From contig OZ219785.1 of assembly GCA_964291285.2 (NCBI GenBank), forward strand, positions 800,001 to 864,000: DNA of 64,000 nucleotides. The letters run 5' to 3'. The notes under the pieces are model-generated. The model saw only the letters and a list, made by a program, of their open reading frames with translations. It did not search any database and was not told where the DNA came from. Shown here one piece after another: positions 25,400 to 41,889 of the stretch (positions are counted from its first letter, which is position 1; every line of letters starts with the position of its first letter). Both the position numbers and the translations under genes were made by a program. This DNA is from Alphaproteobacteria bacterium (lineage in GTDB: Bacteria; Pseudomonadota; Alphaproteobacteria; Bin95).

Positions 25400-27721
25400 A
25401 TGACACAGGATATTTCCCGGACCGGCGGTGCTGGCGACGACACCCTGACGGGTGGCCTCGGCAATGACATCCTGAAGGGCGGCCTTGGCGACGACATCCT
25501 GACAGGCGGCGACGGCGACGACACGCTGACGGGCGGAACCGCAAGCCCGGGAGCCGACGCGGACTTTCTCCTCATGAACCCCGGCAGTTCGGACGATGAC
25601 ACTCTGGACGGCGGCGCGGGCGATGACACGCTGGACGGCGGTGCTGGCCATGACACTCTGGACGGCGGCGCGGGCAACGACACGCTGTATGGCGGCGACG
25701 GGGACGACACGGTGGATGGCGGTGCGGGCAACGACCGTCTGGAAGGCGGCCGGGGCGCCGACAGGCTGACCGGCGGCCGGGGCGCGGACTCGCTCTATGG
25801 CGGCAGGGGCCATAGCGTCGACGTCTTTGCGTTCGCGGTCGGCGACGGGGCCGATTACATCGGCGATTTCGAGGCTGGCGACATCATCGAGATTGCCGGG
25901 GTGTCGGGCGGTTTCGGGGATCTTGTGATCGAGCAGAAGGGCTTCTATACCGTCATCCGCTACGGCGACGGCGACACGATCAAGCTGGAGGGCGTGACGG
26001 CGGCCTCCCTTGGCGCGGACGACTTCCGGTTCCTTCCCGTCGAGGCAGCCTCGCCGGAGGACGGCGGCGAGGACGCTCCTGCACAGGGTGCGCCGCCGGA
26101 CGGCAACGATGACGGCGACGATGATGCCTCGAGCGGCGGGCCTTCTGGCGGGGAGGTGCTGAAGGGTAGCAAGGACGCGGACACGCTCACCGGTGGTGAT
26201 GGCGCCGACACCCTGCGTGGCTACGGGGGCGCCGACACGCTGACCGGCGGGGCCGGCGACGACCTCCTCTATGGCGGCCTGGGTGCCGACACGCTGACCG
26301 GCGGGGCTGGCGACGATACGCTGGGGGGCGGCAAGGGCAACGACACGCTGGACGGCGGCGCGGGCGACGACACGCTGCGCGGCGCCAGGGGTGCCGACAC
26401 GCTGCGCGGCGGCGCGGGCGATGACACGCTGGGGGGCGGCAAGGGCGCCGACACCTTCGTGTTCGAGGCGGGAGACGGCGCCGACATCATTACCGACTTC
26501 GGGGCCGGCGACCGGATTCGCCTCGACGGCGTATCCGGCGGGTTCACGGCACTGGTCATCGAGCAGGACGGCGCCGATACCGTCATTCGCTACGGCGGCG
26601 GCGACACGATCAGGCTGTCGGGCGTATCGGCGGACAGTCTGGATGCGAACGACTTCATCCTGCCTGCTGGCGGCGGCGGCGACGATCACGAAAAGGCCGC
26701 TTACGGCGCCAGTACGAGCGACGACGACAACGACGGCGGCAACCCCCTCGACAACGACAACGACGGTGGTGACCCGAATGCCAACAACGGCGGCGGCGAG
26801 GACAGGATCCCGGGCACTTCGGGCGATGAGCCGCTCGACGTTGAGGACTGCGGCGAGACCATTCATGGCGGCGCGGGCGCCGAATCGCTCTTCGGTACCG
26901 CGTGCGACGACACGATCTACGGCAACGAGGGTGACGACAAGCTCTACGGTCGCAAAGGCGATGACATAATCTATGGCGGCGGGGGTAACGACCTCCTCCG
27001 CGGCAATTCGGGTGACGATGAGCTCTGGGGCGGCGATGGCAACGACACGCTGAGAGGTCGTGACGGTGACGACCTGCTGGAAGGCGGCAAAGGCTGGGAT
27101 TGGCTCTCGGGTGGTCTGGGCAATGACACGCTCCGGGGCGGGGAGGGCAACGACTATTTCGTTTTCGGAACGGAGGGCTACGCCAGCAAGTGGGGATTCA
27201 AGGATGGCGGCGACGACACGATCCTCGACTTCGAGGACGGGACGGACTACATCGTCCTCGGCTCGGTCGATGGGGAGTACCGCTTCGACGACCTTGAGAT
27301 CCGGCAGTCCGGCAGTGACGCCGTCATCACCTGGTCCCTGGGGACCATCACCCTGGAGGGGATCCAGGCGTCGCAACTGAGCAAGGCCGATGTCTTTGCC
27401 CACGTCCCGGTCGAATTATACGAGCCCCACTTGATACTCGACGACAGCATGGGCGACGACACGCTCCAGGGCCGCGCGGGCCTCAGCGACCGGTTCGGAT
27501 TCACGTATGGTGGCGACGACACGATCCTCGACTTCGATCACGGGAGGCTCGTGAGGGACCAAATCGCCTTCTATTCGGTCGACTCGGAGCTCGGCTTCGA
27601 CGACCTCGATATCCGGCAGACCGACAGCGGCGCCGTCATCACCTGGTGGTCGGGGACTGTCACCCTGGAGGGGGTCCAGGCGTCGCAACTGACCGAGGCC
27701 GATTTCGACTTCATCGGCTGA
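25400..27721 (+). CDS. Large multi-module RTX calcium-binding protein
   Basis: Dozens of GGxGxDTLx repeats; four copies of a DxIxDF...IEQ/IRQ...DF domain; RBS GAGGAG. Confidence 0.9.
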   Translation: MTQDISRTGGAGDDTLTGGLGNDILKGGLGDDILTGGDGDDTLTGGTASPGADADFLLMNPGSSDDDTLDGGAGDDTLDGGAGHDTLDGGAGNDTLYGGDGDDTVDGGAGNDRLEGGRGADRLTGGRGADSLYGGRGHSVDVFAFAVGDGADYIGDFEAGDIIEIAGVSGGFGDLVIEQKGFYTVIRYGDGDTIKLEGVTAASLGADDFRFLPVEAASPEDGGEDAPAQGAPPDGNDDGDDDASSGGPSGGEVLKGSKDADTLTGGDGADTLRGYGGADTLTGGAGDDLLYGGLGADTLTGGAGDDTLGGGKGNDTLDGGAGDDTLRGARGADTLRGGAGDDTLGGGKGADTFVFEAGDGADIITDFGAGDRIRLDGVSGGFTALVIEQDGADTVIRYGGGDTIRLSGVSADSLDANDFILPAGGGGDDHEKAAYGASTSDDDNDGGNPLDNDNDGGDPNANNGGGEDRIPGTSGDEPLDVEDCGETIHGGAGAESLFGTACDDTIYGNEGDDKLYGRKGDDIIYGGGGNDLLRGNSGDDELWGGDGNDTLRGRDGDDLLEGGKGWDWLSGGLGNDTLRGGEGNDYFVFGTEGYASKWGFKDGGDDTILDFEDGTDYIVLGSVDGEYRFDDLEIRQSGSDAVITWSLGTITLEGIQASQLSKADVFAHVPVELYEPHLILDDSMGDDTLQGRAGLSDRFGFTYGGDDTILDFDHGRLVRDQIAFYSVDSELGFDDLDIRQTDSGAVITWWSGTVTLEGVQASQLTEADFDFIG

Positions 27722-27969
27722 CGCGCGGCGCCAGAGCCATGCGAGAAGCACCGCGCCGAGCGCCAGCCAGAGGGGACAGGAGCGTCGCGGCCCCGACGTG
27801 CGGGCGCCCGGCGGCTGACTGTGGCATGGATGCAACAGGTCGGTAAAATCGGCGTGGGGGTTGGTCCGGGAGGTTGTGCGGTGTCGTGCGGCCGGGTTAG
27901 AGGTTCCGCGCCATCGCAGCGGCGGGTGTATTCGGGTTGACTTCCGAGGCTTTATCACGGAGTAGAATG

Positions 27970-28032
27970 GCGCCTCGCGCCTCGCGCCTCGCGCCTCGCG
28001 CCTCGCGCCTCGCGCCTCGCGCCTCGCGCCTC
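27970..28032 (-). repeat. Tandem heptamer (GAGGCGC) x 9
   Basis: Same unit and context as 1137..1260, with fewer copies. Confidence 0.97.
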
Positions 28033-28368
28033 TTCATGTCTTTCATATGCGGGCTTTTGGCGCCGGTCAGCCGGTTCGCCATCGGGAGAGCTTCTCCCGC
28101 CTGATTGTTGTCTTTCCCGCCTGTGCGTCCTCTGCGGAGGAGCGCCGGGCGCGTGCAGATGACAGGTTGCCGGGCAGCCCGCCGCGCTTGCGGCAGGCCC
28201 GCCTTGCGGGCGGCCCGGCTTTCCCCGGCACGCTTTCTGCCGCGGCCTTTCCGGGGCCGCGGCTTCACCTCCCGTCCCCGGTGACCTGCCGCCCCGTCGT
28301 GCGCCTTCTCCGGCGTGCGGCGGTCGACGGGCGCTGCGGACGGGCTTTCACCTGAAGGAGACGAGACG

Positions 28369-29472
28369 ATGACGACAACAAGACATGGCCCGGCATGGCC
28401 GGGGGACGGCAGGCTGCATGGCGGATGCCGAGCGCGGGGTTTCACGGGCAAGGTTCTTCTTGCGGCCTCGGGTCTTGCGCTTGCGGCGGGTCCTGCGTCT
28501 GCGGCGGAGATGCTGAGCGTGGGCGTCGGCGGCTACATGCAGCAGTGGTTCGGGATGGTCGATGTGGACGACTCGGCGGACGCGACGGTCGAGGGCGGCG
28601 TTGCCCAGCAGTCGGACAGCGAGATCTTCTTCAAGGGCAAGCTGGACGCCGACAACGGCATGACCTTCTCGGTGAAGGTGGAGCTCGAGGGCAACAGTTC
28701 GGGTTCGATGATCGACGAGTCGCAGCTGACGGTTGGCGGCGAGTTCGGCCAGATCACGCTGGGAGCCGAGGACAGCGCGGTGGTTCTCACCCACATGGGC
28801 GTGCGGGATGCCGGTTTCGGCATGGTCTGCGGCGACATGGGCAAATGGGTCAACGGCATCGACGAGTGCAGCGTGAAGGGCCTGGGGACTGCGGGCCACG
28901 GCCTCGGCGACAAGAACCTGGTGAGCTACTTCACGCCGCGGGTGAACGGCGCGCAGATGGGCGTGAGCTACATCCCGAACACCTCGCAGGAAGGCCGCAG
29001 CGCCGCGTTGAAGAACAACGACATGGACGCCTGGTCGGTCGGCGGCAACTACAAGGGCGATTTCGGCAACATGAACCTGGCGTTCTCTGCGGGCCACTAC
29101 CAGAAGAGCCAGATGGACGCCGACGACATGACCTACACGAATGCCGGCCTGCGGGTGGGCATGGGGGCGTTCAGCTTCGATGTCGCCTACGCCACGGCGG
29201 ACGACGGCATGAAGGCGGACGGTCCCGAGGATGTCGAGGTCGTGGCCGCCGGGGTGATGTATTCGGAGGGCGCGATGGCGGTGAGCCTGAGCGGCACGAT
29301 GACCGAGGCCGACGACGGCACGGAGCAGTCGGGCGGCCTGCTTTCGGCGGGCTACACGCTGGCGCCGGGCATTGCCTGGAGAAGCTCGCTGTTCATGGCC
29401 GAGAAGGACCGGGCGGACGGCAGCAATGTCGAGGGCACCGGTTTCGTGACCGGCATCACGCTCGGCTTCTGA
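28369..29472 (+). CDS. Alphaproteobacterial porin, copy 2
   Basis: Signal peptide (LLAASGLALAAGPASA); SEIFFKG...GEFGQITLGAEDSA; SYFTPR; terminal ITLGF. Confidence 0.92.
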   Translation: MTTTRHGPAWPGDGRLHGGCRARGFTGKVLLAASGLALAAGPASAAEMLSVGVGGYMQQWFGMVDVDDSADATVEGGVAQQSDSEIFFKGKLDADNGMTFSVKVELEGNSSGSMIDESQLTVGGEFGQITLGAEDSAVVLTHMGVRDAGFGMVCGDMGKWVNGIDECSVKGLGTAGHGLGDKNLVSYFTPRVNGAQMGVSYIPNTSQEGRSAALKNNDMDAWSVGGNYKGDFGNMNLAFSAGHYQKSQMDADDMTYTNAGLRVGMGAFSFDVAYATADDGMKADGPEDVEVVAAGVMYSEGAMAVSLSGTMTEADDGTEQSGGLLSAGYTLAPGIAWRSSLFMAEKDRADGSNVEGTGFVTGITLGF

Positions 29473-29549
29473 GCGGCGGTCGACGGCACACAGGAACGGT
29501 TCAAACGGTTTGCCCGGTTTGTCCGGGCTGAGAGAAGGAGAAGGGTTCG

Positions 29550-31264
29550 ATGAGAACCATGAGACATGTGGCTCTGGCGGCGATGGCCGCTGCGGGCCTG
29601 GCGCTCGCGGGCTGCGGAGGCGGCGGCGGGAAGAAGCCGTCCACGGCGATGGGCGGCGACCAGCAGATGGAGATGACGCCGGTCGAAAAGGCCAAGGCGG
29701 CCTACGACGCCGCTGCGGCAGCCGAAAAGGCGGCGGAGGATGCCGCGAAAACGGCCAAGATGAAGCGTGACGAGGCCAAGGAGAAGGACGCATATGACAT
29801 CTACACCACCGGCGGCGACAGCGGGGTAGTCGTGAACAACGCCGCGGCCGTGACAGCCGCGAAGGCGGCGGCCGAGAAGGCGCTGGCGGACGCCAAGGCG
29901 GCGCTGACGGCGGCCAGGAAGGCGCAGACGGACCTGAACGCCGTGTCGGGCACGCCCGGCCTCGCGGCGCAGAAGGAGGTGGTCGGTCAGCGGATCAAGG
30001 ACGTGGAAGCGCAGATCAAGCGCATCGAGGGGTATCTCAGAACGATCAACGGCTATGCCGGGAGGGTCGATACCGAGGCGAAGATCAAGAACCGCGCCGG
30101 CGAAACCCCCGCTGGGCCTGCCCGGGGCAACAACGCGAGGCGGGTTCTCGAGATGCTGCAGCCTTTCGATGCGTCGTCCCCCGGCGGCAGAAACAACAGG
30201 GCCAAGATCGAGGCCCGGTGGAACCGGAGGGCGAGCAATATCGAGGATCTCATTGGCAAGATACCGACGAAGCGCATTGCCCCTACTACCGCCACCGACA
30301 CAAGCCCTGGCCGCTCCAAGGCCTACCTCAAGTATGACCTGCGCGGCCTCCCGGAAGACGCCATGACCTGGGAGCAGATCGCCGGAGAGGGGAACCTGGT
30401 CAAGAAGGCTTTCGGCACCGACAACATGGATGTCGATGTCCTGCCCCTTGCCGGGATGCCCCTTTCCGTACTCACCAGCAGCGGTGGAACGGCCGTGACC
30501 AAGCTTCCCGACTTCACCGGCGGCAAGGCCGACGCCCAGTATTACATGGGGGTCAAGGGGACGCTGCATTGCCAGGGCAGCTGCACGGTTGACGAAGGCA
30601 AGCTGATGGGTTCGCTGTTTTTCCAGAAGGCCGGGGAAGAGGTCGCCGACAGCACGCTCTACTACCGGATGAAGCCGACCGACGCCCACTACACGCCGTA
30701 CGGAGCCTATGCCCGCTACGGGTACTGGCTGTATGAAACCGCCGACAGCATCGGGATCCGTCTCTTCGCCCACGCCCCCACCGCCGAGTACGGGGATATC
30801 ACCGAGAAGGCCGGGCTCGCCAAGACCGCCACCTACGATGGCGAGGCCTTTGGCCTGTCGGTGCTGAGACCTTCACCGCCGGCACGCACACGGGGCAGAA
30901 GTCGGGACAGTTCACGGCGGATGTGACGCTCAACGCGACGTTCATGGTTGGCGCCACCAGAGCCAAAGTGGGAGGAAAGATCGACAACTTCATGGGGAAT
31001 GCCGTTCACGAGGACTGGGTCGTTACGCTCCAGGAGACGGCGAGTAAATACGACGACTACATCTCCTTTGACAACGGCGTTGCCCAGGGTGCCGCCCTTT
31101 CCGGCGGCACCGCGCCTCAGGCCGGCGAGTGGAATGCTGAGTTCTATCACGATGGCAGCCCAGAGCGTCCGGTCGGTGCGATCGGCATGTTCAACGCCCA
31201 TTTCTCGAACGGGCACGCTGCCGGCGCCTTCGCAACGAGGATGAAGACGGAGACGGCGGAGTAG
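29550..31264 (+). pseudogene. TbpB-like surface lipoprotein (frameshift ~30866)
   Basis: Lipobox LAGC followed by GGGGG; Ala/Lys coiled coil; C-terminal TATYDGEAFG...GQFTADVTLNATF...GEWNAEFY...GAFATR barrel continues in a second frame. Confidence 0.8.
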
Positions 31265-31345
31265 CCTGCTCCCGGAACATCCGCGTTCCCGGGCCCCGGC
31301 CGCTTCGGGCGGGCGGAGGTTCCCTTTGCACGGACAGGGGTTTTC

Positions 31346-32016
31346 ATGCGCATACCCGCTCTCGTCATTGCCGCCGGGCTGTGCCTGTTCGCCGCCGCCG
31401 CCCACGGCCAGGACGCGACCGGCGAGCGGTTCCGGGCGGGCATGGAGGCGCTTGCCGCCGCGCAGGCCGCCGCGGACCGGAACGCCCGCGACGGGAAGCT
31501 CGACGAGGCGATTGCGGCGTTCCGGGCCATCCTGGTGGACCGCCCGGAACTGGTGCGGGTGCGTCTCGAACTCGCGCACGCCTTCTTCCTGAAGGAGGAG
31601 GACAGCCTGGCGCGGCGGCATTTCGAACAGGTGCTGGCCGGGACGCCGCCAGCGGCGGTGGCCGCCAACATCCGGCGCTTCCTCGACATCATGCGCGCGC
31701 GGCGGCGCTGGGAGGCGCATTTCGGCTTGGCGGTGGCGCCCGACAGCAACCTCAACGCCGCATCGGGGGAGCGCACGGTCTTTCTCGACACGCCGTTCGG
31801 GCGCCTGCCCTTCACCCTCGACGGCGACGTGTCGCGCAAGTCGGGCATCGGCGTCTCGCTGTGGGGCGGCGGCGAATACCAGGTTCCGTTGTCGCCGGCC
31901 CTGCGGCTGCGCGCCGGGGCGGACGCCAGCGCGCGGGAATACAAGGGCGGGGCGTTCGACCGCCATTCGCTCTCGGCCCATATCGGCCCGCGCCGGCTGA
32001 TCGACGGGAGCACGGA
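31346..32016 (+). pseudogene. N-terminal (signal peptide, TPR) half of the SLAM gene
   Basis: DEAIAAFRAILVDRPELVRVRLELAHAFF...ARRHFEQVL, APDSNLN; lies directly after the lipoprotein. Confidence 0.85.
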
Positions 32017-34877
32017 CGCTCGCCGCGCTGAGAGAGCGCCATGGCGGCGCGGTGGTGGTGGTGGACGAGATGTCGCTGGCGGGCACGGCGCAGGCGCGCG
32101 CGCTGCTGCGGATTGCCGAGCGCCTCGATATCGCCCGGCTCGTGCTTGTGGGCGACAGCCGGCAGCTGCGCGGCGTGCAGGCGGGCCAGCCCTTCCGGCA
32201 GATGCAGCAGGCGGGCTTGGGCGTCGCGGAGATGGACGAGGTTCGCCGGCAGCAGGACCCGGACCTGCTGGCCGCCGTCCAGGACATGATCGAGGGCGAG
32301 CCGGGCGCGGCGCTGGAGCGTCTCGGAGGCAACCTGCGGGAACTGCCGGCCGAGGAGATCGCGGGCATGGCGGCCGCGCTCTGGCTGCGGCTCTCGCCCG
32401 GGGCGCGGGCGGGGACGGCGCTGCTGGTTCCGACGCGCGCGCTCAGGGCCGAGGTCGAGGAGGCGGTGCGCGAGGGCCTCGAAGCCGAGGGCGCCCTGCA
32501 CGGGTCCTCCATCGGGATCGAAACGCTCGTGCCCCTCAACCTCACGCGCGCGGAGACGGGCGACGTGCGCAACTGGCGCGAGGGCGACATCGCGCTCTTC
32601 AACCGCGAGCGGAAGAACTACCGCATCCGCAAGGACGACGCCTGCACGGTGATGGAGGTGGAGGAGGACCGGGTGATCCTTGCCCATCCCGATGGCCGGC
32701 CGCGCCACCTGAAGCCCGGCGGCGACCTGCGCTACCGGCTGGACCTGTTCGAGGCGAAGACGCTGCGGATCAGGGAGGGCGAACGGCTGCGCTGGACCCG
32801 CAACGACAGGGAGCGCGGCCTCGTCAACGGCGACCGTGTGGAGGTGGCCGCGATAGGAACCGGAGCGCTCCGCATGCGCCTCTCCGACGGGCGGGAGACG
32901 CGATTCGCGCTCGACGACCCGCAGCTTCGTCATCTTGCATACGCCTATGCGTCCACCGTGCATGCGGCGCAGGGGCAGACGCACGACCGTGTGGTCGCGG
33001 TGCTGGACACGGGCGCGGGGCCGCTGGTGAACCAGCAGACGCTCTATGTGCAGCTGAGCCGGGCGCGCGAGGAGGCGCTGGTGCTGACCGACAACCGCGA
33101 GCAGCTTGTGGAGACGCTGGAGGCGAACACGGGCGAGCGGCTGACGGCGCTGGAAGCCATCGGCGAGGCGGAGACGATGAAGGCGCCGGCGAAGCGTGCG
33201 GTCTCCGGGGAGGCGGCGTCTGCGTTCCTTGACGGCCTGCGCGCGGAGCGGGAGCGCCGCGCCGAAGCGGCGGCGGCCTTGCGCCGGCTGGCGGAGGCCG
33301 AAGCAGCGCTTGCCGCGGCCCGCGCCCATGCGCAGGAAGCCGGATGCGCCTTCGCCGCCCTGCCGGCGGTCGGGCCCGGCGGCGGTCAGACCCTCCGCGA
33401 CCGCATTGCGGCGGCCGAAATCGTGCAGGAAGCGGCGCATGATGTCTCGGCTGCCGCCCATGCGGTGCTGGAGGCGGCGAAGGCGGCGGACCGCGTCCCG
33501 CCGCTCGACGATGCCGCGATGGAGGCGGCGAAGACGGGTGAGGCGGAGGCCGCGGCGCGCCTTGTGGCATACCGGTCGCTGGAGACGGCCGTGACGGCGG
33601 CGAACAGGGCGTCCGGACGGCTGGCGCCCGCAGGCGCGCTCCGCGACAAGGATATCGACGGGGCTTCGATGCAGCGCCATGGCGCCGCCGCCCGGGAGGC
33701 GGCCGCCGCCTTCGACACCCTCGCGCAAAAGGCGCGGGCAGCGGGCGAGGCGGCGCTGGCCCGGCGCGCGCGGGAGAGGGGCACTACCTGCGGCGGAGTG
33801 CGATAGCGAGGCAGCGCTGGCCCGGCGCGCGCGGGAGAGGGATGTCGAAATCTCCGCAGCCGGGCACGCTCGCCGCGCTGGCCCGGCGCGCGCGGGAGAG
33901 GGAGGCGCCCGTCGTCCAGAAACCCTTCGGTGATCGCGCTGGCCCGGTGCGCGCGGGAGAGGGCTTCGGACCTCGGGCTGGCGGCGCTGCACTGGAGCTA
34001 CAGGCTGGCGGGCCACCGGTTCGCGGTGGCGCGGCTGGCCGAGCGGGACATGGCGCTGCCGCACACGGTCGGGGACGTGCGGCGCTGGCAGGACCTGCGC
34101 CGGCGCCAGGCGGACGCGCGGACCGGGGCGGCAGCCGCGGCCGAGGCGGTCGCGCCGGAGAGCGCGGACGCGGCGGCCCGGTGGCGTGAACAGGCGGCGG
34201 ACTACCGCAAGCAGGCCGGCGCGATACGCGGCTCGCTGGCGGAACTGGAGGGGCTGAAGACGCTGGTGCGGACCGCGGAAGCCGCGTCGGACGACGCGGC
34301 GGCATGGAGCGCGGCGGCGGGCGCGGCGGAGACGATCCGGAAAGGCTCCGGCCGGGGTCTGGAGGATGAGGCCGCGCGCGTGCGTGACGAGGAGGCGCGC
34401 CGCCGACAGGAAGGGCGCGAGGCGGCGCGGGCACGTTTCGAGACCCTGAACTCGGAATGGGACGCGTTCGAGAGGGCGGTCAGGGCCGGGGGGCGGGTCG
34501 GCTTTGCGGACAAGCGCAGCCGGCAATATGTCGACCGCGCGCGGCGGCTGGAGGCGGACCCCGATCTCGATGCGGAAGCGAAGGAGACGCTCGCGGCGTT
34601 CCTGCACGAGCACGATGTCGTGCGCCCGAAGGTCGTCCGGCGCTGCCGGGAGCTGTTCGCGCAGTGGAACGCGGTCCGCGCAACGGCAAGGGCCCGCGGC
34701 GTCGGCCGGTTCATCCCTCCGGAGAGCGCGGAGGTCGTTGCGGGGATGCGCAAGCTCGCCGCCGAGAGCCCGGAGCACCTGACGCGCAGACAGAAGGAGA
34801 CATTCGAGACGATCGCCGAGGAATACGTCCTGCATGTCGAGCGGCAGCGGACATGGGTGATGACCATGAGGCCGTGA
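32013..34877 (+). pseudogene. C-terminal helicase half of the MOBF relaxase, interrupted by the repeat-spacer array
   Basis: Walker B VVVDEMSL, LVGDSRQL, YAYASTVHAAQGQT, YVQLSRAR; 32052..33806 and 33930..34877 share one frame. Confidence 0.88.
33753..33963 (-). CRISPR. CRISPR-like mini-array (4 x 28-bp repeats, 3 x 33-bp spacers), no cas genes in window
   Basis: Repeat GCGCTGGCCCGGCGCGCGCGGGAGAGGG at 33753, 33814, 33875 and 33936 (last has one mismatch); three different spacers of exactly 33 bp. Strand inferred from similarity to the type I-E repeat. Confidence 0.7.
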
Positions 34878-36839: not shown

Positions 36840-37634
36840 ATGGCCGGGTTCGAGCAGGCGTTCGATGACGTGGAACAGGCTGCCGAAGCAGCGCGGAAAG
36901 CTGCCGGGCGATTGGCGTCCATTGCAAGCGCGTTGAAAAAGGCTGCGCGGGAAGGCAATGTCGCGGGCATCCGGCGCGGGCCGGACCGACTCGGGAAGGC
37001 GATGGAGGAGGCGCGGCAAGAGGTCGAGCGCGCCGCCGCCAGTTGGCCTTTCTCTGAAACTGAAGAAACCGACTATTTGAAGAACGAATACGCGGCGGAA
37101 TTGCAGGCTGTGTCGGCAGAGAAGGGCCTGAGCCTGTATGAACGCGACGGCCAACTGATATCCCCGCCGTCTATCCTGAGAATCCTCCCCGACAGGCGCT
37201 CCGTTATGCTGGACCGGAAGAGCCGGTCCACGATCCGACCTTCATGGCTCGCGGAGCTTCTGCTTCGTAACCAGGGCAAGTCCAGCGGCTTCACGCCGGC
37301 GCAATTCCTGGAAGCGCTCTATGCCGTTTACGCCGACATAACCGGCCTGTCCTCCTTGATGTCGAAGCAGGGCGGCGGCGTCGTGCCGCTGGCCCGTATC
37401 TACCGGCTGATGACTGCCCTGCCGGGTATCGGCCGCAATTACGACCGGATGGATTTCGGCAGGGACCTGTACATTCTGGATTCGAAAGGACCGCACCGAA
37501 CCAAGAAGGGGGCGGAAGTGTCCTTTTCGTCATCTGGGGGCAAATACCGTCCTCGCGACCTTTTCTATTTCGTCGATCCCAACGGGGTCAGTATAGATTA
37601 TTACGGGATTCGCTTCAGGGAAAATTCCGAATGA
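36840..37634 (+). CDS. Hypothetical protein, first gene of the candidate defence operon
   Basis: Clean 264-aa ORF with helical N-terminus; ATGA overlap with the next gene. Confidence 0.8.
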   Translation: MAGFEQAFDDVEQAAEAARKAAGRLASIASALKKAAREGNVAGIRRGPDRLGKAMEEARQEVERAAASWPFSETEETDYLKNEYAAELQAVSAEKGLSLYERDGQLISPPSILRILPDRRSVMLDRKSRSTIRPSWLAELLLRNQGKSSGFTPAQFLEALYAVYADITGLSSLMSKQGGGVVPLARIYRLMTALPGIGRNYDRMDFGRDLYILDSKGPHRTKKGAEVSFSSSGGKYRPRDLFYFVDPNGVSIDYYGIRFRENSE

Positions 37635-38596
37635 ACAACATGATTGTCCTCGACGACTGGCTTGAGGCTATCGACCGGGAGTATCTGGCCGACTTCATTG
37701 GCGCAGGTGGCGCGGCTGTCAAATTCGCTGTTGCCGAGGAGAAAGGAAGGCTCGCGCTGTCCGCGGCATTGAAGGCTCGCGGCGAGTCGTCAGGGTATCT
37801 GTTCGTCCGTCTGGATGCAGCTACTTGCCGGGCTCATATGCCGCAAGACCTCTTCTTCGGCGTGGCACGGCAGGTCGATTGGCGGTTTCTGGCTCGTCGC
37901 GCTATCCAGAGCTTTCTGGTTGAAGAAGGTTTCGAGGTCGAGGGAGTCGATGCCCAGGAGCCTCGCATGATCGATTCCATTATCGCCGCAAACAGCTCCG
38001 GGCGTGACTATGTAGGTGGTGTGTTGAGGCCGTATCTTGAAAACCGGATTTTCAGAAACGCCGATCTCTCCAAAGCGTTCCGCATCGCTATGCTGCACCT
38101 CTGCCGGTTTGAGATTCAGGATACCGCAGGGATGGAACGCTATCCGGGGCAGGCTCTTCTGGACTGGTTGACGGGCGAAGACAACAGGATCGGGCAGTTG
38201 CGCGATTTCCAGATCAGGACCCGGATCGACCGGACCACGGCTCGATATTTCCTGGAGTCTGCCTGCCACTGGATACGACAATCCGGCTGTTCCGGTATGA
38301 TTCTCCTCTTGGACAATGCCCGCGTGACCGTGGGACGAAATCCGAGGGACGGCTTGAGATACTACACCAAAGCCATGACGCTGGACCATTACGAAGTGCT
38401 GCGGGAATTTATCGACGACGCAGACCGGCTATCGAGCCTCCTGTTCGTCGTGGCGACTGACTATGGATTCCTTGATGAGTCCTCACGGAGTAGCAGAGGC
38501 TGGATCATCTATTCGGCCTTGCGTACGAGAATCATGGACGATGTTCGAGACAGAAATGTTGTCAATCCGGTTTCCTCTCTGGTCAGAATATCCTGA
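37631..38596 (+). CDS. DUF2791/BrxD-like P-loop-fold protein with degenerate Walker A
   Basis: GAAVKFAVAEE in place of the P-loop, LLDWLTGE, GCSGMILLLDN, YEVLREFIDD, YSALRTRI. Confidence 0.65.
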   Translation: MNNMIVLDDWLEAIDREYLADFIGAGGAAVKFAVAEEKGRLALSAALKARGESSGYLFVRLDAATCRAHMPQDLFFGVARQVDWRFLARRAIQSFLVEEGFEVEGVDAQEPRMIDSIIAANSSGRDYVGGVLRPYLENRIFRNADLSKAFRIAMLHLCRFEIQDTAGMERYPGQALLDWLTGEDNRIGQLRDFQIRTRIDRTTARYFLESACHWIRQSGCSGMILLLDNARVTVGRNPRDGLRYYTKAMTLDHYEVLREFIDDADRLSSLLFVVATDYGFLDESSRSSRGWIIYSALRTRIMDDVRDRNVVNPVSSLVRIS

Positions 38597-38616
38597 ATGA
38601 AGGGTAAGCCATAGCC

Positions 38617-39894
38617 ATGTCTACACAATCGAACGGCGACGCAGCAATTATATCCCGACGGGCGATAGAAGCACTGAGAAGCGGGGTGCCCAACCGGGAT
38701 GCAGTGCGTGAGCTCGGCAGCAGCCAGCCGGAGGCGGAGCGGCAATTCATCGAAATGCTGGAACGAAGCACCGGTTTCGGTCGGCCGCTACCGGCAACGC
38801 GCGGGATGCTGGTTTCGGGAGATTTCGGAGCAGGAAAGTCTCATCTTTTGGCTCATTTCGAGCAGCTTGCTCTATCGAAGAATTTCGTTTCTAGCCGAGT
38901 CGTGATTAGCAAGGAGACCCCTCTATACGATCTAGGAAAAGTGTTTACCTCGGCAGTTGAAAAAGGAAAACTTCCTGGGAGAAATGGTCTATTCATGGAG
39001 GAATTATCCTTGGCGCTGAAGCCCGGAACAGAAAACTACGATCTGTTTTCCGGCGCCATTGCCAAGGCGGCGCTAGATGGCCAGATGAGTATGATATTTC
39101 CCGCGACTCGTATCGTGCACGAGCGGTCTCAAGATCAGGATATAATTGGCGAGATTGAGTCTTTTTGGGCTGGGGACAGAATTGCAGTTGCGAGTGTAAG
39201 GAAAGGGTTGTCGTCGATTGGAGAAGCGCAAAATTATCGTTTTCCTGCGCCGAAGGCTTCCGAGTTGCCTTTGCAACGCTTGCGATTCGCTGCCGAACTC
39301 ATACGCGGAGCGGGATACGCCGGTTGGGTCATTTTTCTGGACGAAATTGAGTTGATCGGCAATTATTCGATATTGCAGCGAGGGCGTTCTTACGCCGAGA
39401 TCGCACACTGGGTGGGGCGCGCGCCGGAAACGGACCGGTCGGGGTTAATCACGGTTGGCGCGGTTACGGGCGATTTTGTGCCGGCGGTTATTGACGCAGA
39501 CGGCAAGCAGGATGGGGACAAGATCGTTCCCCGGCTGCAAGGGAGCGCGCGATATGGAAATCTTGCCGCTTCGGCCGAAGCTGGTATGGAAGTGTTGAGA
39601 CAGGATGTCTTCGCATTGCAGCCCGTCGGGGAGATGGATGTTGAAGCGACGCTGGGGAAGCTGCGCGATATTTATGCCAAGGCGTATAAGTGGCGGCCAC
39701 CCTCGGCTTCGGTGGCATCGGGGACCGCCGGTCACATGAACCAGATGCGCTACAAGGTCAGGTCAGCAATCAACGAATGGGACTTGCTCAGGTTGCGTCC
39801 AGGTTATCGGCCGGAAATCGAAGCACAAGAGTTTCAGCATGACTATGGCGAAGACTCCGATCTGGAAAAGCCGGCTGCGGACAATGTGGAATAA
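38617..39894 (+). CDS. DUF2791/BrxD-like ATPase
   Basis: RAIEALRSGVP N-terminus; Walker A GDFGAGKS; Walker B VIFLDEIE. Confidence 0.85.
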   Translation: MSTQSNGDAAIISRRAIEALRSGVPNRDAVRELGSSQPEAERQFIEMLERSTGFGRPLPATRGMLVSGDFGAGKSHLLAHFEQLALSKNFVSSRVVISKETPLYDLGKVFTSAVEKGKLPGRNGLFMEELSLALKPGTENYDLFSGAIAKAALDGQMSMIFPATRIVHERSQDQDIIGEIESFWAGDRIAVASVRKGLSSIGEAQNYRFPAPKASELPLQRLRFAAELIRGAGYAGWVIFLDEIELIGNYSILQRGRSYAEIAHWVGRAPETDRSGLITVGAVTGDFVPAVIDADGKQDGDKIVPRLQGSARYGNLAASAEAGMEVLRQDVFALQPVGEMDVEATLGKLRDIYAKAYKWRPPSASVASGTAGHMNQMRYKVRSAINEWDLLRLRPGYRPEIEAQEFQHDYGEDSDLEKPAADNVE

Positions 39895-39921
39895 AGGGCG
39901 GCATTAGCCGGCCGGACTCCG

Positions 39922-41889
39922 GTGGCCATCGGACGGAATGAAATGGCGGCGGAAGCGAGCATTGTTGCGTGGTTGCGGATAGTACCGTTTAGGGATCGCG
40001 ACGGCGTTTGCACAGCCCTTCTGGAGACTTCACCGGAAGGGGAGCTGCTTGGCTTCGGCGTTGCGGGCGGCGGCGAATGGCGCGAAGCCGGCGGACCGGT
40101 CGCGGCGCTCTTTCGGTCTGCGGCGCATTCGCCAGCGCTGGCGGTCGCCCGCGCGGACGAAGTGTCCGCCAGCATGTTGCGGAAAATTCCTCAAATTACA
40201 GCGTTGTTCTGCCTTATCAGCTCGGCGGACGGACGGCCGGGCGCCGCCGTGTCGTGGGCGGGGGTGCCGCCTGCGCCCGCCTCGCCCGCCGGCCGTACCT
40301 TCGCTGCGCTGATGGCCCGACGTGACCCGTTCGAACCTCTGGAGCGCGTGGCGGCGGCGCTCCGCCTGACCTTCGCCGACGCTCAATTTGGACAGGCCGC
40401 CCACATTCCGGGCCTCCACGTGCAGTTTTCGTTGCCAAGGGACGCCGCCCGTTCCGGCAGCGGCATGGGGCAGGACCTAGCCAGCAGGCTTCGCGCCACG
40501 CTGGCCGCGCCTTCGGGGCCACCGCGGGTCGATGCGAACGCACCGCAGAATTGGGCCGGCGAGTTGATGCCGTTTCAGCAGGACGGGGTGCGGGCGCTTC
40601 TGGAGATGGATCGGCTGTTGCTGGCGGATGATATGGGGCTCGGCAAGACCGTGCAGGCCGTCGCCGCGCTCCGCATTCTGGCGGCGCGGGACAAGGTCGG
40701 CCCTGCCCTGGTGGTCGCGCCGGCGAGCGTGCTCGACCAATGGCGGCGGGAACTTGCCAAATGGGCGCCGGAGCTTTCCGCCATCGTCGTGCGCGGTTCG
40801 ATGGACGACCGGACATGGCAATGGCGGGCGCGCAAGGACGTGACGCTGGTCGGCTACGAGACATTGCGTTCGGACGTCGGTCGCATCCCGGCGCTTCGGC
40901 CGCCGGGAGAAGCCTGGAGCGCGGTCGTCGCCGACGAGGCGCAGCGGATCAAGAACCGCAACGACACCAGCCAGGCGGTAAAGAGCCTTGCCAGAACCCG
41001 GTCCTGGGCGCTTACCGGCACGCCCGTCGAGAACCACGAGGACGAGTTGGCGTCCATCATGGAGTTCGTGGACCATCGCAAGGACGCGCCGCCCGCGCGC
41101 TATCATCCCGGCCCCGCCCTGTTGAAGCGCCACCGGGAGTTACAGCTGCGGCGCAGGAAAGGCGATGTTCTGGCGGACCTGCCACCTAAGCTGGAGACGA
41201 AGCTGACGGTCGCCCTGCGCTCCGACCAGAGGCAGAGCTACGATGTCGCGGAGCAGGAAGGAATCGTCTACCTTAGGTCCCTTGGCGCAAATGTTACGGT
41301 CCAGCATATTCTGGAGCTCATTACCCGTCTGAAACAGATATGCAATTTCGACCCGAAGACAGGCTCATCCAGAAAAATGGACGACATAAAGGATAAGTTG
41401 CAGGAAATATCGGCGCGCGGGAACAAGGCCCTTATTTTCTCGCAATATGCCAACGACATATCAGGTGTCGGGGCAGCGGCTAGGCATTTGCAGGAATTCG
41501 ACCCGCTTGCCTTGACAGGCGAGATTCCGGTGGAGGAACGCTTCTCCATTGTTGAGCGGTTCCGAACTTCGGACAGACACAAGGCGATGATTATATCGCT
41601 GCGCGCCGGCGGTGTTGGGCTGAATTTGCAAGAGGCGTCATATGTCTTCCATCTCGACCGCTGGTGGAACCCCGCAGTGGAGCGGCAGGCGGAGGATAGG
41701 GCGCATCGAATCGGTCAGACGGCTAAATTGAGTGTCATAAAGTATATTTGCGCGGATACCATCGAACAACGCATCGACCGGATACTCGACGAAAAGCAGC
41801 AGTTGTTCGACGAGCTTGTCGACGATGTATCGCTCGATTTGTCGATACGGTTGAGTCGCAAGGAATTGCTGGGATTGTTCGGGCTTTAA
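39922..41889 (+). CDS. SNF2-family helicase/ATPase with unknown N-terminal domain
   Basis: LADDMGLGKT, DEAQRIKN, LTGTPVEN, LRRRK, GGVGLNL, WWNPAVERQAEDRAHRIGQ; start uncertain. Confidence 0.92.
   Translation: MAIGRNEMAAEASIVAWLRIVPFRDRDGVCTALLETSPEGELLGFGVAGGGEWREAGGPVAALFRSAAHSPALAVARADEVSASMLRKIPQITALFCLISSADGRPGAAVSWAGVPPAPASPAGRTFAALMARRDPFEPLERVAAALRLTFADAQFGQAAHIPGLHVQFSLPRDAARSGSGMGQDLASRLRATLAAPSGPPRVDANAPQNWAGELMPFQQDGVRALLEMDRLLLADDMGLGKTVQAVAALRILAARDKVGPALVVAPASVLDQWRRELAKWAPELSAIVVRGSMDDRTWQWRARKDVTLVGYETLRSDVGRIPALRPPGEAWSAVVADEAQRIKNRNDTSQAVKSLARTRSWALTGTPVENHEDELASIMEFVDHRKDAPPARYHPGPALLKRHRELQLRRRKGDVLADLPPKLETKLTVALRSDQRQSYDVAEQEGIVYLRSLGANVTVQHILELITRLKQICNFDPKTGSSRKMDDIKDKLQEISARGNKALIFSQYANDISGVGAAARHLQEFDPLALTGEIPVEERFSIVERFRTSDRHKAMIISLRAGGVGLNLQEASYVFHLDRWWNPAVERQAEDRAHRIGQTAKLSVIKYICADTIEQRIDRILDEKQQLFDELVDDVSLDLSIRLSRKELLGLFGL

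What the first reader, a model, noticed from the sequence alone, without database searches (positions are those of the whole stretch)
33753..33963. Cas-less CRISPR-like array grown out of relaxase coding sequence (candidate natural neo-CRISPR)
Seen: four 28-bp repeats at an exact 61-bp period, separated by three different 33-bp spacers (GCACTACCTGCGGCGGAGTGCGATAGCGAGGCA, ATGTCGAAATCTCCGCAGCCGGGCACGCTCGCC, AGGCGCCCGTCGTCCAGAAACCCTTCGGTGATC). The repeat is in-frame relaxase sequence (ALARRARER). Deleting 3 x 61 bp fuses 32052..33806 and 33930..34877 into one ORF, and spacer 1 brings in the stop codon. Its reverse complement CCCTCTCCCGCGCGCGCCGGGCCAGCGC aligns ungapped to the E. coli I-E repeat (15/28 by my count, with the CCCGCGC..GC.GGG palindrome in register), and 2 of 3 spacers begin with G in that orientation. 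Known: I-E Cas1-Cas2 duplicates 28 bp, inserts 33 bp starting with the PAM-derived G, and can integrate off-target at repeat-like sites in E. coli experiments. Inference: host Cas1-Cas2 hit a pseudo-repeat in a mobile-element gene three times, creating a new array and disrupting the gene; the site could also act as a spacer decoy. Caveats: the mismatched repeat is at the end that would be leader-proximal, and the last 8 bp of spacer 1 resemble the bases before repeat 1.
Basis: partly seen in the sequence, partly recalled or inferred. Interest (0 to 1): 0.92.

Follow-up and report, generated by a model that had tools for sequence, protein, structure and literature searches.

The report
Stray CRISPR spacer insertions inside genes
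The bacterium's own CRISPR spacer-inserting enzyme seems to have misfired into look-alike sites inside ordinary genes, breaking them and in one place building a small new repeat-spacer array, which is a rare natural view of how CRISPR arrays may be born.

Summary
Four copies of a 28-nt sequence sit at an exact 61-nt period in window 33753-33963, separated by three unrelated 33-nt spacers.

- **Empty sites:** the repeat is native coding sequence of a TrwC-family relaxase/helicase remnant. A 97% identical paralogue and 5 orthologues carry it once, with no insert.
- **Host system:** the same genome has an E. coli-like type I-E Cas1-Cas2 next to arrays with the same 28+33 geometry.
- **More events:** a genome-wide scan found two further 61-bp insertions of this form, one in the paralogue and one in a chromosomal dehydrogenase gene. 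Both have empty sites.
- **Target match:** all three duplicated 28-mers match the native repeat's palindromic core in register, 11-12 of 16 against a background frequency of 0.0018 or less.
- **Strain variation:** contigs of another sample of the same organism lack the array.
- **Gaps:** no protospacer was found, no leader and no Cas6e-type hairpin.

Most likely this is off-target I-E spacer integration, the "neo-CRISPR" process, acting as insertional mutagenesis. The kind is known; this natural case is unusually well supported.

The parts
33753..33780 (+). Pseudo-repeat copy R1 (28 nt), native trwC coding sequence (ALARRARER)
   Evidence: A single identical copy lies in the paralogue at C4:345628-345655.
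33781..33813 (.). Spacer S1 (33 nt). It starts with G on the + strand and brings in the TAG stop at 33804-33806. Its last 8 nt resemble the 8 nt before R1.
   Evidence: No other match in the own genome.
33814..33841 (+). Pseudo-repeat copy R2, identical to R1
33842..33874 (.). Spacer S2 (33 nt), ends with C on the + strand
33875..33902 (+). Pseudo-repeat copy R3, identical to R1
33903..33935 (.). Spacer S3 (33 nt), ends with C on the + strand
33936..33963 (+). Pseudo-repeat copy R4, one C>T change at position 13 (33948)
   Evidence: The paralogue has C there, so T is derived.
32052..33806 (+). Upstream piece of the trwC-family gene remnant (AAA_30 from profile position 91, UvrD_C_2). There is no TrwC relaxase domain in this copy.
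   Evidence: Homology to the C4 copy begins at about 32007-32011.
33930..34877 (+). Downstream piece of the same gene, in frame with the upstream piece once 183 nt are discounted
32533..32560 (+). Empty site, in the window copy, of the second insertion (event B) that the C4 paralogue carries
   Evidence: table 5c, shows the 31 inserted letters in run X1.
27782..32019 (.). Multicopy element of about 4.2 kb (10 or more copies in the genome at 75-97% identity) that abuts and truncates the 5' end of the window trwC copy

Best explanation
The array is the product of three off-target spacer integrations by the genome's own type I-E Cas1-Cas2 integrase. They went into a 28-bp stretch of trwC coding sequence that resembles the palindromic core of the native I-E repeat.

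Each event made staggered cuts 28 bp apart, joined in a 33-bp prespacer, and gap repair duplicated the 28-mer. That adds 61 bp per event.

The same process hit at least two other sites in this genome. One is a different 28-mer in the paralogous trwC on contig C4. The other is a 28-mer in a chromosomal D-2-hydroxyacid dehydrogenase gene on C3.

Shown:
- the geometry of the insertions
- the empty sites
- the presence and apparent intactness of Cas1e and Cas2e
- the in-register similarity of the targets to the native repeat
- the excess of such insertions at exactly 61 bp
- the absence of the array from another strain

Inferred:
- that Cas1-Cas2 did it
- that the spacers come from foreign DNA
- that the result is gene disruption rather than a working crRNA array
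- that loss of the interference module, through cse1/cas8e split by an IS, made such events tolerable or more frequent
For: 1. **Geometry.** The array has 4 x 28 nt at a 61-nt period with 33-nt unique spacers. This is the geometry of the native arrays at C3:1389286-1389619 and C3:1392329-1393638, where every full unit is 61 nt.

2. **Cognate enzyme.** Cas1e scores 359 bits on TIGR03638 and Cas2e 103 bits on TIGR01873, next to those arrays. Cas1 aligns end to end with E. coli Cas1 structures at 446 bits.

3. **Empty sites.**
   - Site A: the C4 paralogue (115 mismatches over about 3.4 kb aligned, roughly 97% identical) and 5 genus orthologues have one copy of the 28-mer and no insert.
   - Site B: the window copy is the empty site.
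   - Site C: 14 of 16 other genus genomes have the gene without the 61 bp. Thirteen show two pieces sharing the 28-mer, and one is a single alignment 61 nt shorter. In G002 the gene is an intact 315-aa ORF.

4. **Genome-wide scan.** I looked for exact 24-36-nt direct repeats with unique intervening DNA at distances 40-100, outside the canonical arrays. There were 4 pairs at 61, 1 each at 54, 60 and 81, and 0 at the other 57 distances.

5. **Target similarity.** Core positions 6-21 match the native repeat, in register with the duplication boundaries, at 12/16 (A), 11/16 (B) and 12/16 (C). Of 12.25 million genome positions, 0.00027 reach 12 and 0.00176 reach 11.

6. **Spacers.** They are unrelated to one another and to the flanks and are absent from the rest of the genome. 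The 26 native spacers are also absent from the rest of the genome.

7. **Independent contigs and strains.** Public contigs of run X1 reproduce the array without a difference. Run X2 (same organism code, other sample) has a contig that skips exactly 183 nt and zero depth over the spacers.

8. **The other system does not fit.** The second CRISPR system in the genome is type II, with Cas9, 36-nt repeats and a period of 65-66.
Against: - **No protospacer found.** S1-S3 were searched in the own genome, 72,556 plasmid records, 50,697 phage records, 61 relatives, 37 genomes of the order and 401 of the class. Exact 22-mers of spacers B and C were searched in viral, genome and metagenome contigs, and of D in viral contigs only. 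So neither PAM nor source is known.
- **First base.** In any single orientation only 3 of the five 33-nt spacers begin with G, against 25 of 26 native spacers. All five have G at the + start or C at the + end, which would fit mixed orientation, but chance gives that about 6% of the time.
- **No leader.** Neither flank of any site resembles the native leader.
- **S1 oddity.** The last 8 nt of S1 match the 8 nt before R1 in 7 of 8 places. The model does not explain this.
- **Mobile DNA.** Sites A and B lie on mobile DNA and could have been hit in an earlier host.
- **No activity data.** Nothing shows that Cas1-Cas2 is expressed or active here, and the cas operon is rearranged.
Confidence: 0.85

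Rival explanations
1. The insertions were made by Cas1-Cas2, but not in this cell line or not by this system. The trwC copies ride on conjugative or mobile DNA and could have been hit in a former host by that host's I-E integrase.
For: Sites A and B are in trwC copies flanked by multicopy elements. Type I-E Cas1 passes its cut-off in only 3 of 17 genus genomes, so the system itself moves about.
Against: Site C is in a chromosomal gene that is 98% identical to the orthologue in G002 and present in 14 of 16 other genus genomes. All three targets match this genome's repeat core in register. A and B are private to each of two paralogues within this genome, and both are missing from run X2 of the same organism code.
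Confidence: 0.07
2. It is a working orphan or mobile-element mini-array that borrows the host's Cascade. In that case the coding look of the repeat is secondary.
For: It has a CRISPR-like architecture with unique spacers and sits on mobile DNA. Isolated arrays can be active (PMC13142298, abstract and introduction passages seen).
Against: - The repeat is ancestral coding sequence present once in homologues.
- It shares only 14 of 28 positions with the native repeat.
- No pseudo-repeat folds into the 7-bp stem and tetraloop of the native repeat: z-scores run from -0.4 to +1.6, against -3.7 for the native repeat.
- There is no leader-like flank.
- cse1 is split by an IS.
Confidence: 0.04
3. It is a decayed tandem duplication, a replication-slippage product or an assembly artefact.
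For: The region is GC-rich and the 28-mer holds an alternating CG run. The 8 nt before R1 recur before R2.
Against: - The spacers align no better than shuffles, while the repeats are 100%, 100% and 96% identical.
- The same 28+33 form occurs at two unrelated loci and at no neighbouring spacing.
- An independent contig set reproduces the array letter for letter (X1 record 6: 228 nt, 0 differences).
Confidence: 0.02

Closest known systems
Neo-CRISPR arrays from non-canonical spacer integration in E. coli (Nivala, Shipman and Church 2018). The paper itself is not held. I saw it only through citing passages in 10.1101/148544, PMC7054753, PMC6698737 and PMC11788318.
   Same: A type I-E Cas1-Cas2 integrates a spacer-sized fragment outside the array and duplicates the target, which creates a repeat-spacer-repeat unit. 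This can seed new arrays and may carry fitness costs.
   Different: Those events were seen under Cas1-Cas2 overproduction in the laboratory. Natural evidence was described by a citing paper as circumstantial, in two other species. Here the events are fixed in a wild genome, each with an empty site. One locus has grown to three spacers, and the hits disrupt identifiable genes.
[quoted passage not shown] 2020). The paper is not held. Its three proposed routes are quoted in the introduction of PMC13142298.
   Same: One of the three proposed origins is off-target spacer acquisition. This locus is an array far from cas genes in a genome that has them.
   Different: Most isolated arrays carry the same repeat as the cas-adjacent arrays (recalled from that paper's abstract, not seen). 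Here the repeat is a different sequence taken from a host gene.
Canonical type I-E CRISPR arrays (E. coli type)
   Same: 28-bp duplicated unit, 33-bp inserted unit and a 61-bp period. The native arrays of this genome have exactly this form.
   Different: There is no leader and no Cas6e-type hairpin. The repeat is only 14/28 like the native one. The first base of the spacers is mixed, and the array lies inside a coding sequence.
Off-target integration by Cas1-Cas2 in vitro at sites resembling repeat or leader-repeat junctions. Type II-A: PMC6895254, passages seen. P. furiosus: PMC6698737, passages seen.
   Same: Integration away from the array is guided by intrinsic recognition of repeat-like sequence.
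   Different: Those are other subtypes and mostly half-site events on plasmids. Here the products are full-site and repaired in a genome, and the similarity lies in the repeat core, not at a leader-repeat junction.

Membership tests
Off-target (neo-CRISPR) integration by type I-E Cas1-Cas2 | Target-site duplication of repeat length (28 bp) flanking an insert of spacer length (33 bp) | tested here: met
   site A, three times; B; C
Off-target (neo-CRISPR) integration by type I-E Cas1-Cas2 | Empty site: the same locus without the insert and with one copy of the duplicated sequence | tested here: met
   A: paralogue plus 5 orthologues. B: the window copy. C: 14 of 16 other genus genomes. X2 contig skipping 183 nt.
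Off-target (neo-CRISPR) integration by type I-E Cas1-Cas2 | Cognate adaptation genes in the same genome, apparently intact | tested here: met
   Cas1e and Cas2e are above their curated cut-offs. Cas1 aligns full length with E. coli Cas1. Activity was not tested.
Off-target (neo-CRISPR) integration by type I-E Cas1-Cas2 | Target resembles the native repeat | tested here: met
   Core matches of 11-12 of 16 in register, against background frequencies of 0.00176 and 0.00027
Off-target (neo-CRISPR) integration by type I-E Cas1-Cas2 | Spacers derive from foreign DNA next to the system's PAM (PAM-derived G at a spacer end) | tested here: inconclusive
   No protospacer found. G at the + start or C at the + end in 5 of 5 spacers, where chance gives about 0.06. 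Native spacers: 25 of 26 begin with G.
Off-target (neo-CRISPR) integration by type I-E Cas1-Cas2 | Integration at these sites by the enzyme, demonstrated directly | not testable with these tools
   Needs an in vitro or in vivo integration assay
Functional type I-E CRISPR array | Repeat equal or nearly equal to the cas-adjacent repeat, forming the Cas6e stem-loop | tested here: not met
   14/28 identity. No hairpin better than shuffles.
Functional type I-E CRISPR array | Leader upstream of the first repeat | tested here: not met
   Flanks of A, B and C against the native leader: anchored identity 0-2 of the last 10 nt. Local scores are within shuffles except C in reverse orientation, at p 0.015.
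Functional type I-E CRISPR array | Complete effector (Cascade with Cse1, plus Cas3) available | tested here: not met
   Cse1 profile positions 1-319 lie at C2:533987-534988 and positions 333-495 at C3:1398125-1398622. Each piece abuts a copy of a 2.5-kb ISAs1-family element. Cas3 is at C2:453 kb.
TrwC-type conjugative relaxase | N-terminal TrwC relaxase domain followed by an AAA_30/UvrD-like helicase | tested here: not met
   The window copy starts inside AAA_30 (profile position 91) and has no TrwC domain. The C4 paralogue has TrwC plus AAA_30 but is frameshifted by insertion B.

The most novel reading that the evidence does not exclude
This genome may catch CRISPR-array birth in the wild. 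An I-E adaptation module, cut loose from interference by an IS in cse1, repeatedly seeds repeat-spacer units at pseudo-repeats. One seed has grown to three spacers. The same 28-mer boundary appears to carry a different insert in a third strain (X3: a contig leaves the reference exactly at the end of R1). If so, certain coding 28-mers are recurrent hot spots. Cas1-Cas2 would then act as a site-preferring mutagen that knocks out conjugative relaxases and host genes, which would be a measurable natural cost of adaptation and a source of new arrays.
Probability: 0.3. Interest if true: 0.85.

Novelty: new member of a known kind. Interest (0 to 1): 0.7.

Why it matters
Off-target integration has been proposed as one origin of new and isolated CRISPR arrays, and as a hidden cost of adaptation. 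According to a paper that cites the original laboratory study, the natural evidence was circumstantial.

Here one genome gives three independent, cleanly bounded events, each with an empty site. It also gives a shared target motif that maps onto the native repeat core, a locus that went on to take three spacers, and identifiable broken genes. That makes three things directly testable with one strain and its sister isolates:
- what Cas1-Cas2 recognises without a leader
- how a first hit favours further hits
- how often adaptation mutates the host

Tried and rejected
- **Tandem Repeats Finder** did not detect the 61-nt period.

- **Protospacer searches, all negative.**
  - S1-S3 in the own genome: best match 15 nt.
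  - Plasmids and phages: only GC-rich partial hits, E>=0.01.
  - 61 relatives, 37 genomes of the order and 401 of the class: only partial hits across the S2/R3 junction or the repeat, in unrelated genes. In one search only 2 candidates per genome were scored.
  - Spacers B, C and D in the own genome.
  - Exact 22-mers of B, C and D in viral contigs: 0 hits each.
  - The 22-mers of B and C in genome and metagenome contigs: B 0 hits; C 3 hits of 24-28/33 identity. One lies in a leucyl-tRNA synthetase gene, one in a molybdopterin oxidoreductase gene and one in an unassigned ORF, so they are chance matches.

- **Orientation and leader.** Orientation could not be settled from first bases or from full-length identity (+ 14/12/15, - 14/15/15). 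The leader comparison found nothing.

- **GC content.** Spacer GC (0.64-0.82) does not differ from native spacers (0.655) or the genome (0.682).

- **Older events.** A search for older, degenerate 61-nt events (>=22/28) found none beyond A, B and C.

- **Event D.** C3:1520497 has a 28-nt exact duplication plus 32 nt, a 60-nt in-frame insert that splits the zinc ribbon of a primase-like ORF. It is kept apart for four reasons: the size is off by one, it has no G or C end, it scores only 6-7/16 on the core, and no orthologue of the site was found in the genus.

- **Sequencing runs.** No RNA holder was listed for the stretch.

- **Tools and papers.** Nivala 2018 and Shmakov 2020 are not held, and supplements were not consulted.

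- **Not done.** I did not compare with the E. coli repeat, which I would have had to type from memory.
Full report
**What is there.** Window 33753-33963 holds four copies of the 28-mer GCGCTGGCCCGGCGCGCGCGGGAGAGGG at an exact 61-nt spacing. Three 33-nt stretches of unrelated sequence lie between them. A search with up to 3 mismatches finds these four copies and nothing else in the window, and none of 100 shuffles gave any match. The fourth copy has one C>T change. Tandem Repeats Finder missed the period. The 28-mer is read in frame in ORF 32052-33806. That ORF ends at a TAG inside spacer 1, and the frame resumes in ORF 33930-34877. The three units add 183 nt, a multiple of three, so the gene is broken by the stop and not by a frameshift.

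**The gene.** The upstream ORF matches AAA_30 only from profile position 91, then UvrD_C_2. A paralogue on contig C4 (C4:343821-347841) has 115 mismatches over about 3.4 kb aligned. It has the full TrwC relaxase domain plus AAA_30. So the window copy is the 3' two thirds of a trwC-type relaxase/helicase gene. It is cut at about 32007-32019 by a multicopy element of about 4.2 kb. 'Relaxase coding sequence' is right for the family, but this copy has no relaxase domain left.

**Empty sites.** The 28-mer occurs once more in the 6.13-Mb genome, exactly, at C4:345628-345655. A global alignment of the two paralogues shows a 183-nt gap in C4 at just this place. The left and right BLAST alignments overlap on the single 28-mer. 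In a search of 61 genomes (G000 included), five other species of the genus (G002, G004, G006, G009, G015) show the same pattern, with left and right halves abutting on one copy. An alignment of eight sequences shows a single, diverged copy of the segment in each. The 28-mer is therefore ancestral coding sequence, and the 3 x 61 nt are an insertion.

**The host system.** The genome holds two cas1 loci.
- On C3 lie cas2e, cas1e, cas6e, cas5e, cas7e and cse2, all above curated cut-offs. Next to them are two arrays of 6 and 22 repeats whose full units are all 61 nt. In canonical orientation the repeat is GTGTTCCCCGCTCGTGCGGGGATGAACC followed by a base that is G in 25 of 26 units. That is the 28+33 form with a PAM-derived G.
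- Cas1 aligns over residues 11-316 with E. coli Cas1 structures at 446 bits. The GIEG, HTG and YDxAD stretches are kept. That these hold the catalytic residues is recalled, not tested.
- The other locus is type II: Cas9 at C1:152903-155848, with 36-nt repeats and a period of 65-66. It cannot give 28+33.

**More events in the same genome.** I scanned all five contigs for exact direct repeats of 24-36 nt at distances 40-100. The DNA between the copies had to be unique and not part of a shorter tandem, and the three canonical arrays were excluded. Result: 4 pairs at distance 61, one each at 54, 60 and 81, and none at the other 57 distances. The pairs at 61 are two from the window array (the third pair has the mismatch) and two new loci.
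- **Event B.** C4:344345-344435 has a 30-nt repeat with 31 nt between, that is 28+33 with two ambiguous bases. It lies inside the C4 trwC paralogue, and the window copy (32531-32560) is its empty site. It ends ORF L017:2262-4388 and shifts the frame.
- **Event C.** C3:1772442-1772530 is exactly 28+33, inside a D-2-hydroxyacid dehydrogenase gene. Of the 16 other genus genomes, 13 give two alignments that share the 28-mer, one gives a single alignment 61 nt shorter, and two have no orthologue hit. In G002 (98% identical) the gene is one intact 315-aa ORF with both domains.
- **No older events.** A looser scan (>=22 of 28) found nothing further at 61.
- **Event D.** The pair at distance 60 (C3:1520497, 28+32) splits the zinc ribbon of a primase-like ORF. 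It fits the other criteria poorly, so I leave it as a possible, atypical event.

**Target choice.** The three duplicated 28-mers share CC at positions 8-9 and CGCGCGCGG at 13-21, counted from the duplication boundary (registers). Laid on the native repeat in register, positions 6-21 (the two inverted-repeat arms and the loop) match in 12, 11 and 12 of 16 places for A, B and C. Among all 12.25 million positions of the genome on both strands, 0.00027 reach 12 and 0.00176 reach 11. Allowing two orientations, and three registers for B, my rough joint chance figure is about 3e-9. The sites were found without reference to this similarity. The reverse orientation gives the better arm matches (IR1 5/6 in all three). 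Full-length identity is nearly the same both ways, so orientation stays open.

**The spacers.** The three window spacers, B, C and D align with one another and with the flanks no better than shuffles. The one exception among 28 pairs is S3 against D, which I take as a multiple-testing effect. None has another match in the genome, and neither do the native spacers. No protospacer was found anywhere I could search. The three 22-mer hits for spacer C lie in unrelated genes at 24-28 of 33 identity. Each of the five 33-nt spacers has G at its + start or C at its + end. A PAM-derived G with leaderless, mixed orientation would give this, but by my estimate chance gives it about 6% of the time.

**Other strains.** One run (X1, 0.92 of sampled words, possibly the source of the assembly) has a 228-nt contig identical to 33751-33978. 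It also has the 31 inserted letters of event B.
- **X2.** A second sample under the same organism code has a 1067-nt contig that joins 33765 to 33949, skipping exactly 183 nt. It has zero depth over the spacers. A 619-nt contig runs through the B site without an insert.
- That X2 contig carries the C4-type letter at 33717. What is shown is therefore that no copy in X2's contigs holds S1-S3 or B, not which paralogue the contig represents.
- **X3.** A third sample has a contig ending at 33780 and a 60-nt contig covering 33751-33784 that then continues with 26 other letters. Sixty letters is what a k=31 graph gives for a unique junction between two sequences that each occur elsewhere (my reading of the method, recalled). 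The junction then falls at the end of the 28-mer.
- This hints at a different insert at the same boundary, but it rests on one short contig.

**Does the array work?** Probably not. The native repeat folds into a 7-bp stem and tetraloop (-15 kcal/mol, z -3.7). The pseudo-repeats, on either strand, fold no better than shuffles. No flank resembles the native leader. The effector is incomplete.
- The Cse1 profile is split between C2:533987-534988 and C3:1398125-1398622. Each half abuts a copy of a 2.5-kb ISAs1-family element that has ten or more copies at >=99.5% identity on C1-C4.
- Cas3 lies at C2:453 kb.
- The shared IS copies also tie the contigs to one genome, despite the 4.77% contamination figure.

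The visible effect of the insertions is gene disruption: two trwC copies and one dehydrogenase. It is an inference, not a result, that the break in cse1 removed self-targeting costs or changed cas1-cas2 expression.

**What is known.** Off-target integration by overproduced E. coli Cas1-Cas2, creating 'neo-CRISPR' arrays, was reported by Nivala et al. 2018. A citing preprint says that natural evidence was circumstantial in two other species and that its frequency in nature is unclear (10.1101/148544, passages; also PMC7054753, PMC6698737 and PMC11788318, passages). Shmakov et al. 2020 list off-target acquisition as one of three origins of isolated arrays (quoted in PMC13142298). Neither original paper could be read here. 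My literature searches turned up no paper describing several such events with empty sites in one wild genome. They cover only the held library, so this is not a claim of absence.

**Unexplained.**
- The last 8 nt of S1 (GCGAGGCA) nearly repeat the 8 nt before R1 (GCGAGGCG). My estimate is a chance of about 0.01-0.02 after allowing for the ends tested.
- The X3 loose end shares an 11-mer with the start of spacer B.
- It is not clear why one site took three spacers when some 3,300 genome positions score as well on the core.

**Verdict.** This is best filed as a natural, multi-locus case of off-target type I-E spacer integration. It is a new member of a known kind, with unusually complete comparative evidence and clear experiments to follow.

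Noticed in passing
G000 contig C4:344345-344435 (L017:4346-4436). Empty site in window 32531-32560.: A second, independent 61-bp insertion (30-nt direct repeat, 31 nt between) in the paralogous full-length trwC gene. It frameshifts the gene.
   Followed up: yes
G000 contig C3:1772442-1772530 (L028:2001-2089): A third 28+33 insertion that splits a D-2-hydroxyacid dehydrogenase gene. The gene is intact in relatives.
   Followed up: yes
G000 contig C3:1520497-1520584 (L029:2001-2088): A 28-nt exact duplication with 32 nt between (period 60). It is an in-frame 20-codon insert that splits the CxxC...CxxC zinc ribbon of a primase-like ORF next to a DndB-like gene. It is a poor match to the native repeat, and its origin is unclear.
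   Followed up: partly
G000 C3:1398125-1401167 and C2:533987-537495 (L016, L018): cse1/cas8e of the type I-E operon is split by a 2.5-kb ISAs1-family element, and its two halves lie on different contigs. cas3 is about 80 kb from the N-terminal half. The IS has ten or more near-identical copies.
   Followed up: partly
G000 C1:152903-158006: A type II system: Cas9, Cas1, and 10 repeats of 36 nt at a period of 65-66.
   Followed up: partly
G000 C3:1388436-1389286: Degenerate older I-E repeat variants and a 769-nt interruption at the far end of the smaller native array.
   Followed up: no
G000, 7 copies, for example C1:787081 and C1:140146: A multicopy element holds an internal 27/28-nt direct repeat at period 62 whose core resembles the I-E repeat (core >=10 in 6 of the 8 hits at that spacing). 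It could be an old integration that spread with its element, or merely IS structure.
   Followed up: no
window 37631-41889: Two BrxC/BrxD-like ATPase ORFs and an SNF2-family helicase lie downstream of the trwC remnant. This looks like a defence-type cargo region.
   Followed up: no
window 25400-27721: A 773-aa ORF with 10 RTX calcium-binding repeat stretches.
   Followed up: no
run X3 on window 33751-33784: A 60-nt contig leaves the reference right after the first 28-mer copy. This may be a different insert at the same boundary in another strain. Its loose end shares an 11-mer with spacer B.
   Followed up: partly
genus survey: Type I-E Cas1 passes its cut-off in only 3 of 17 genus genomes, so the system is patchy in the genus.
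   Followed up: no
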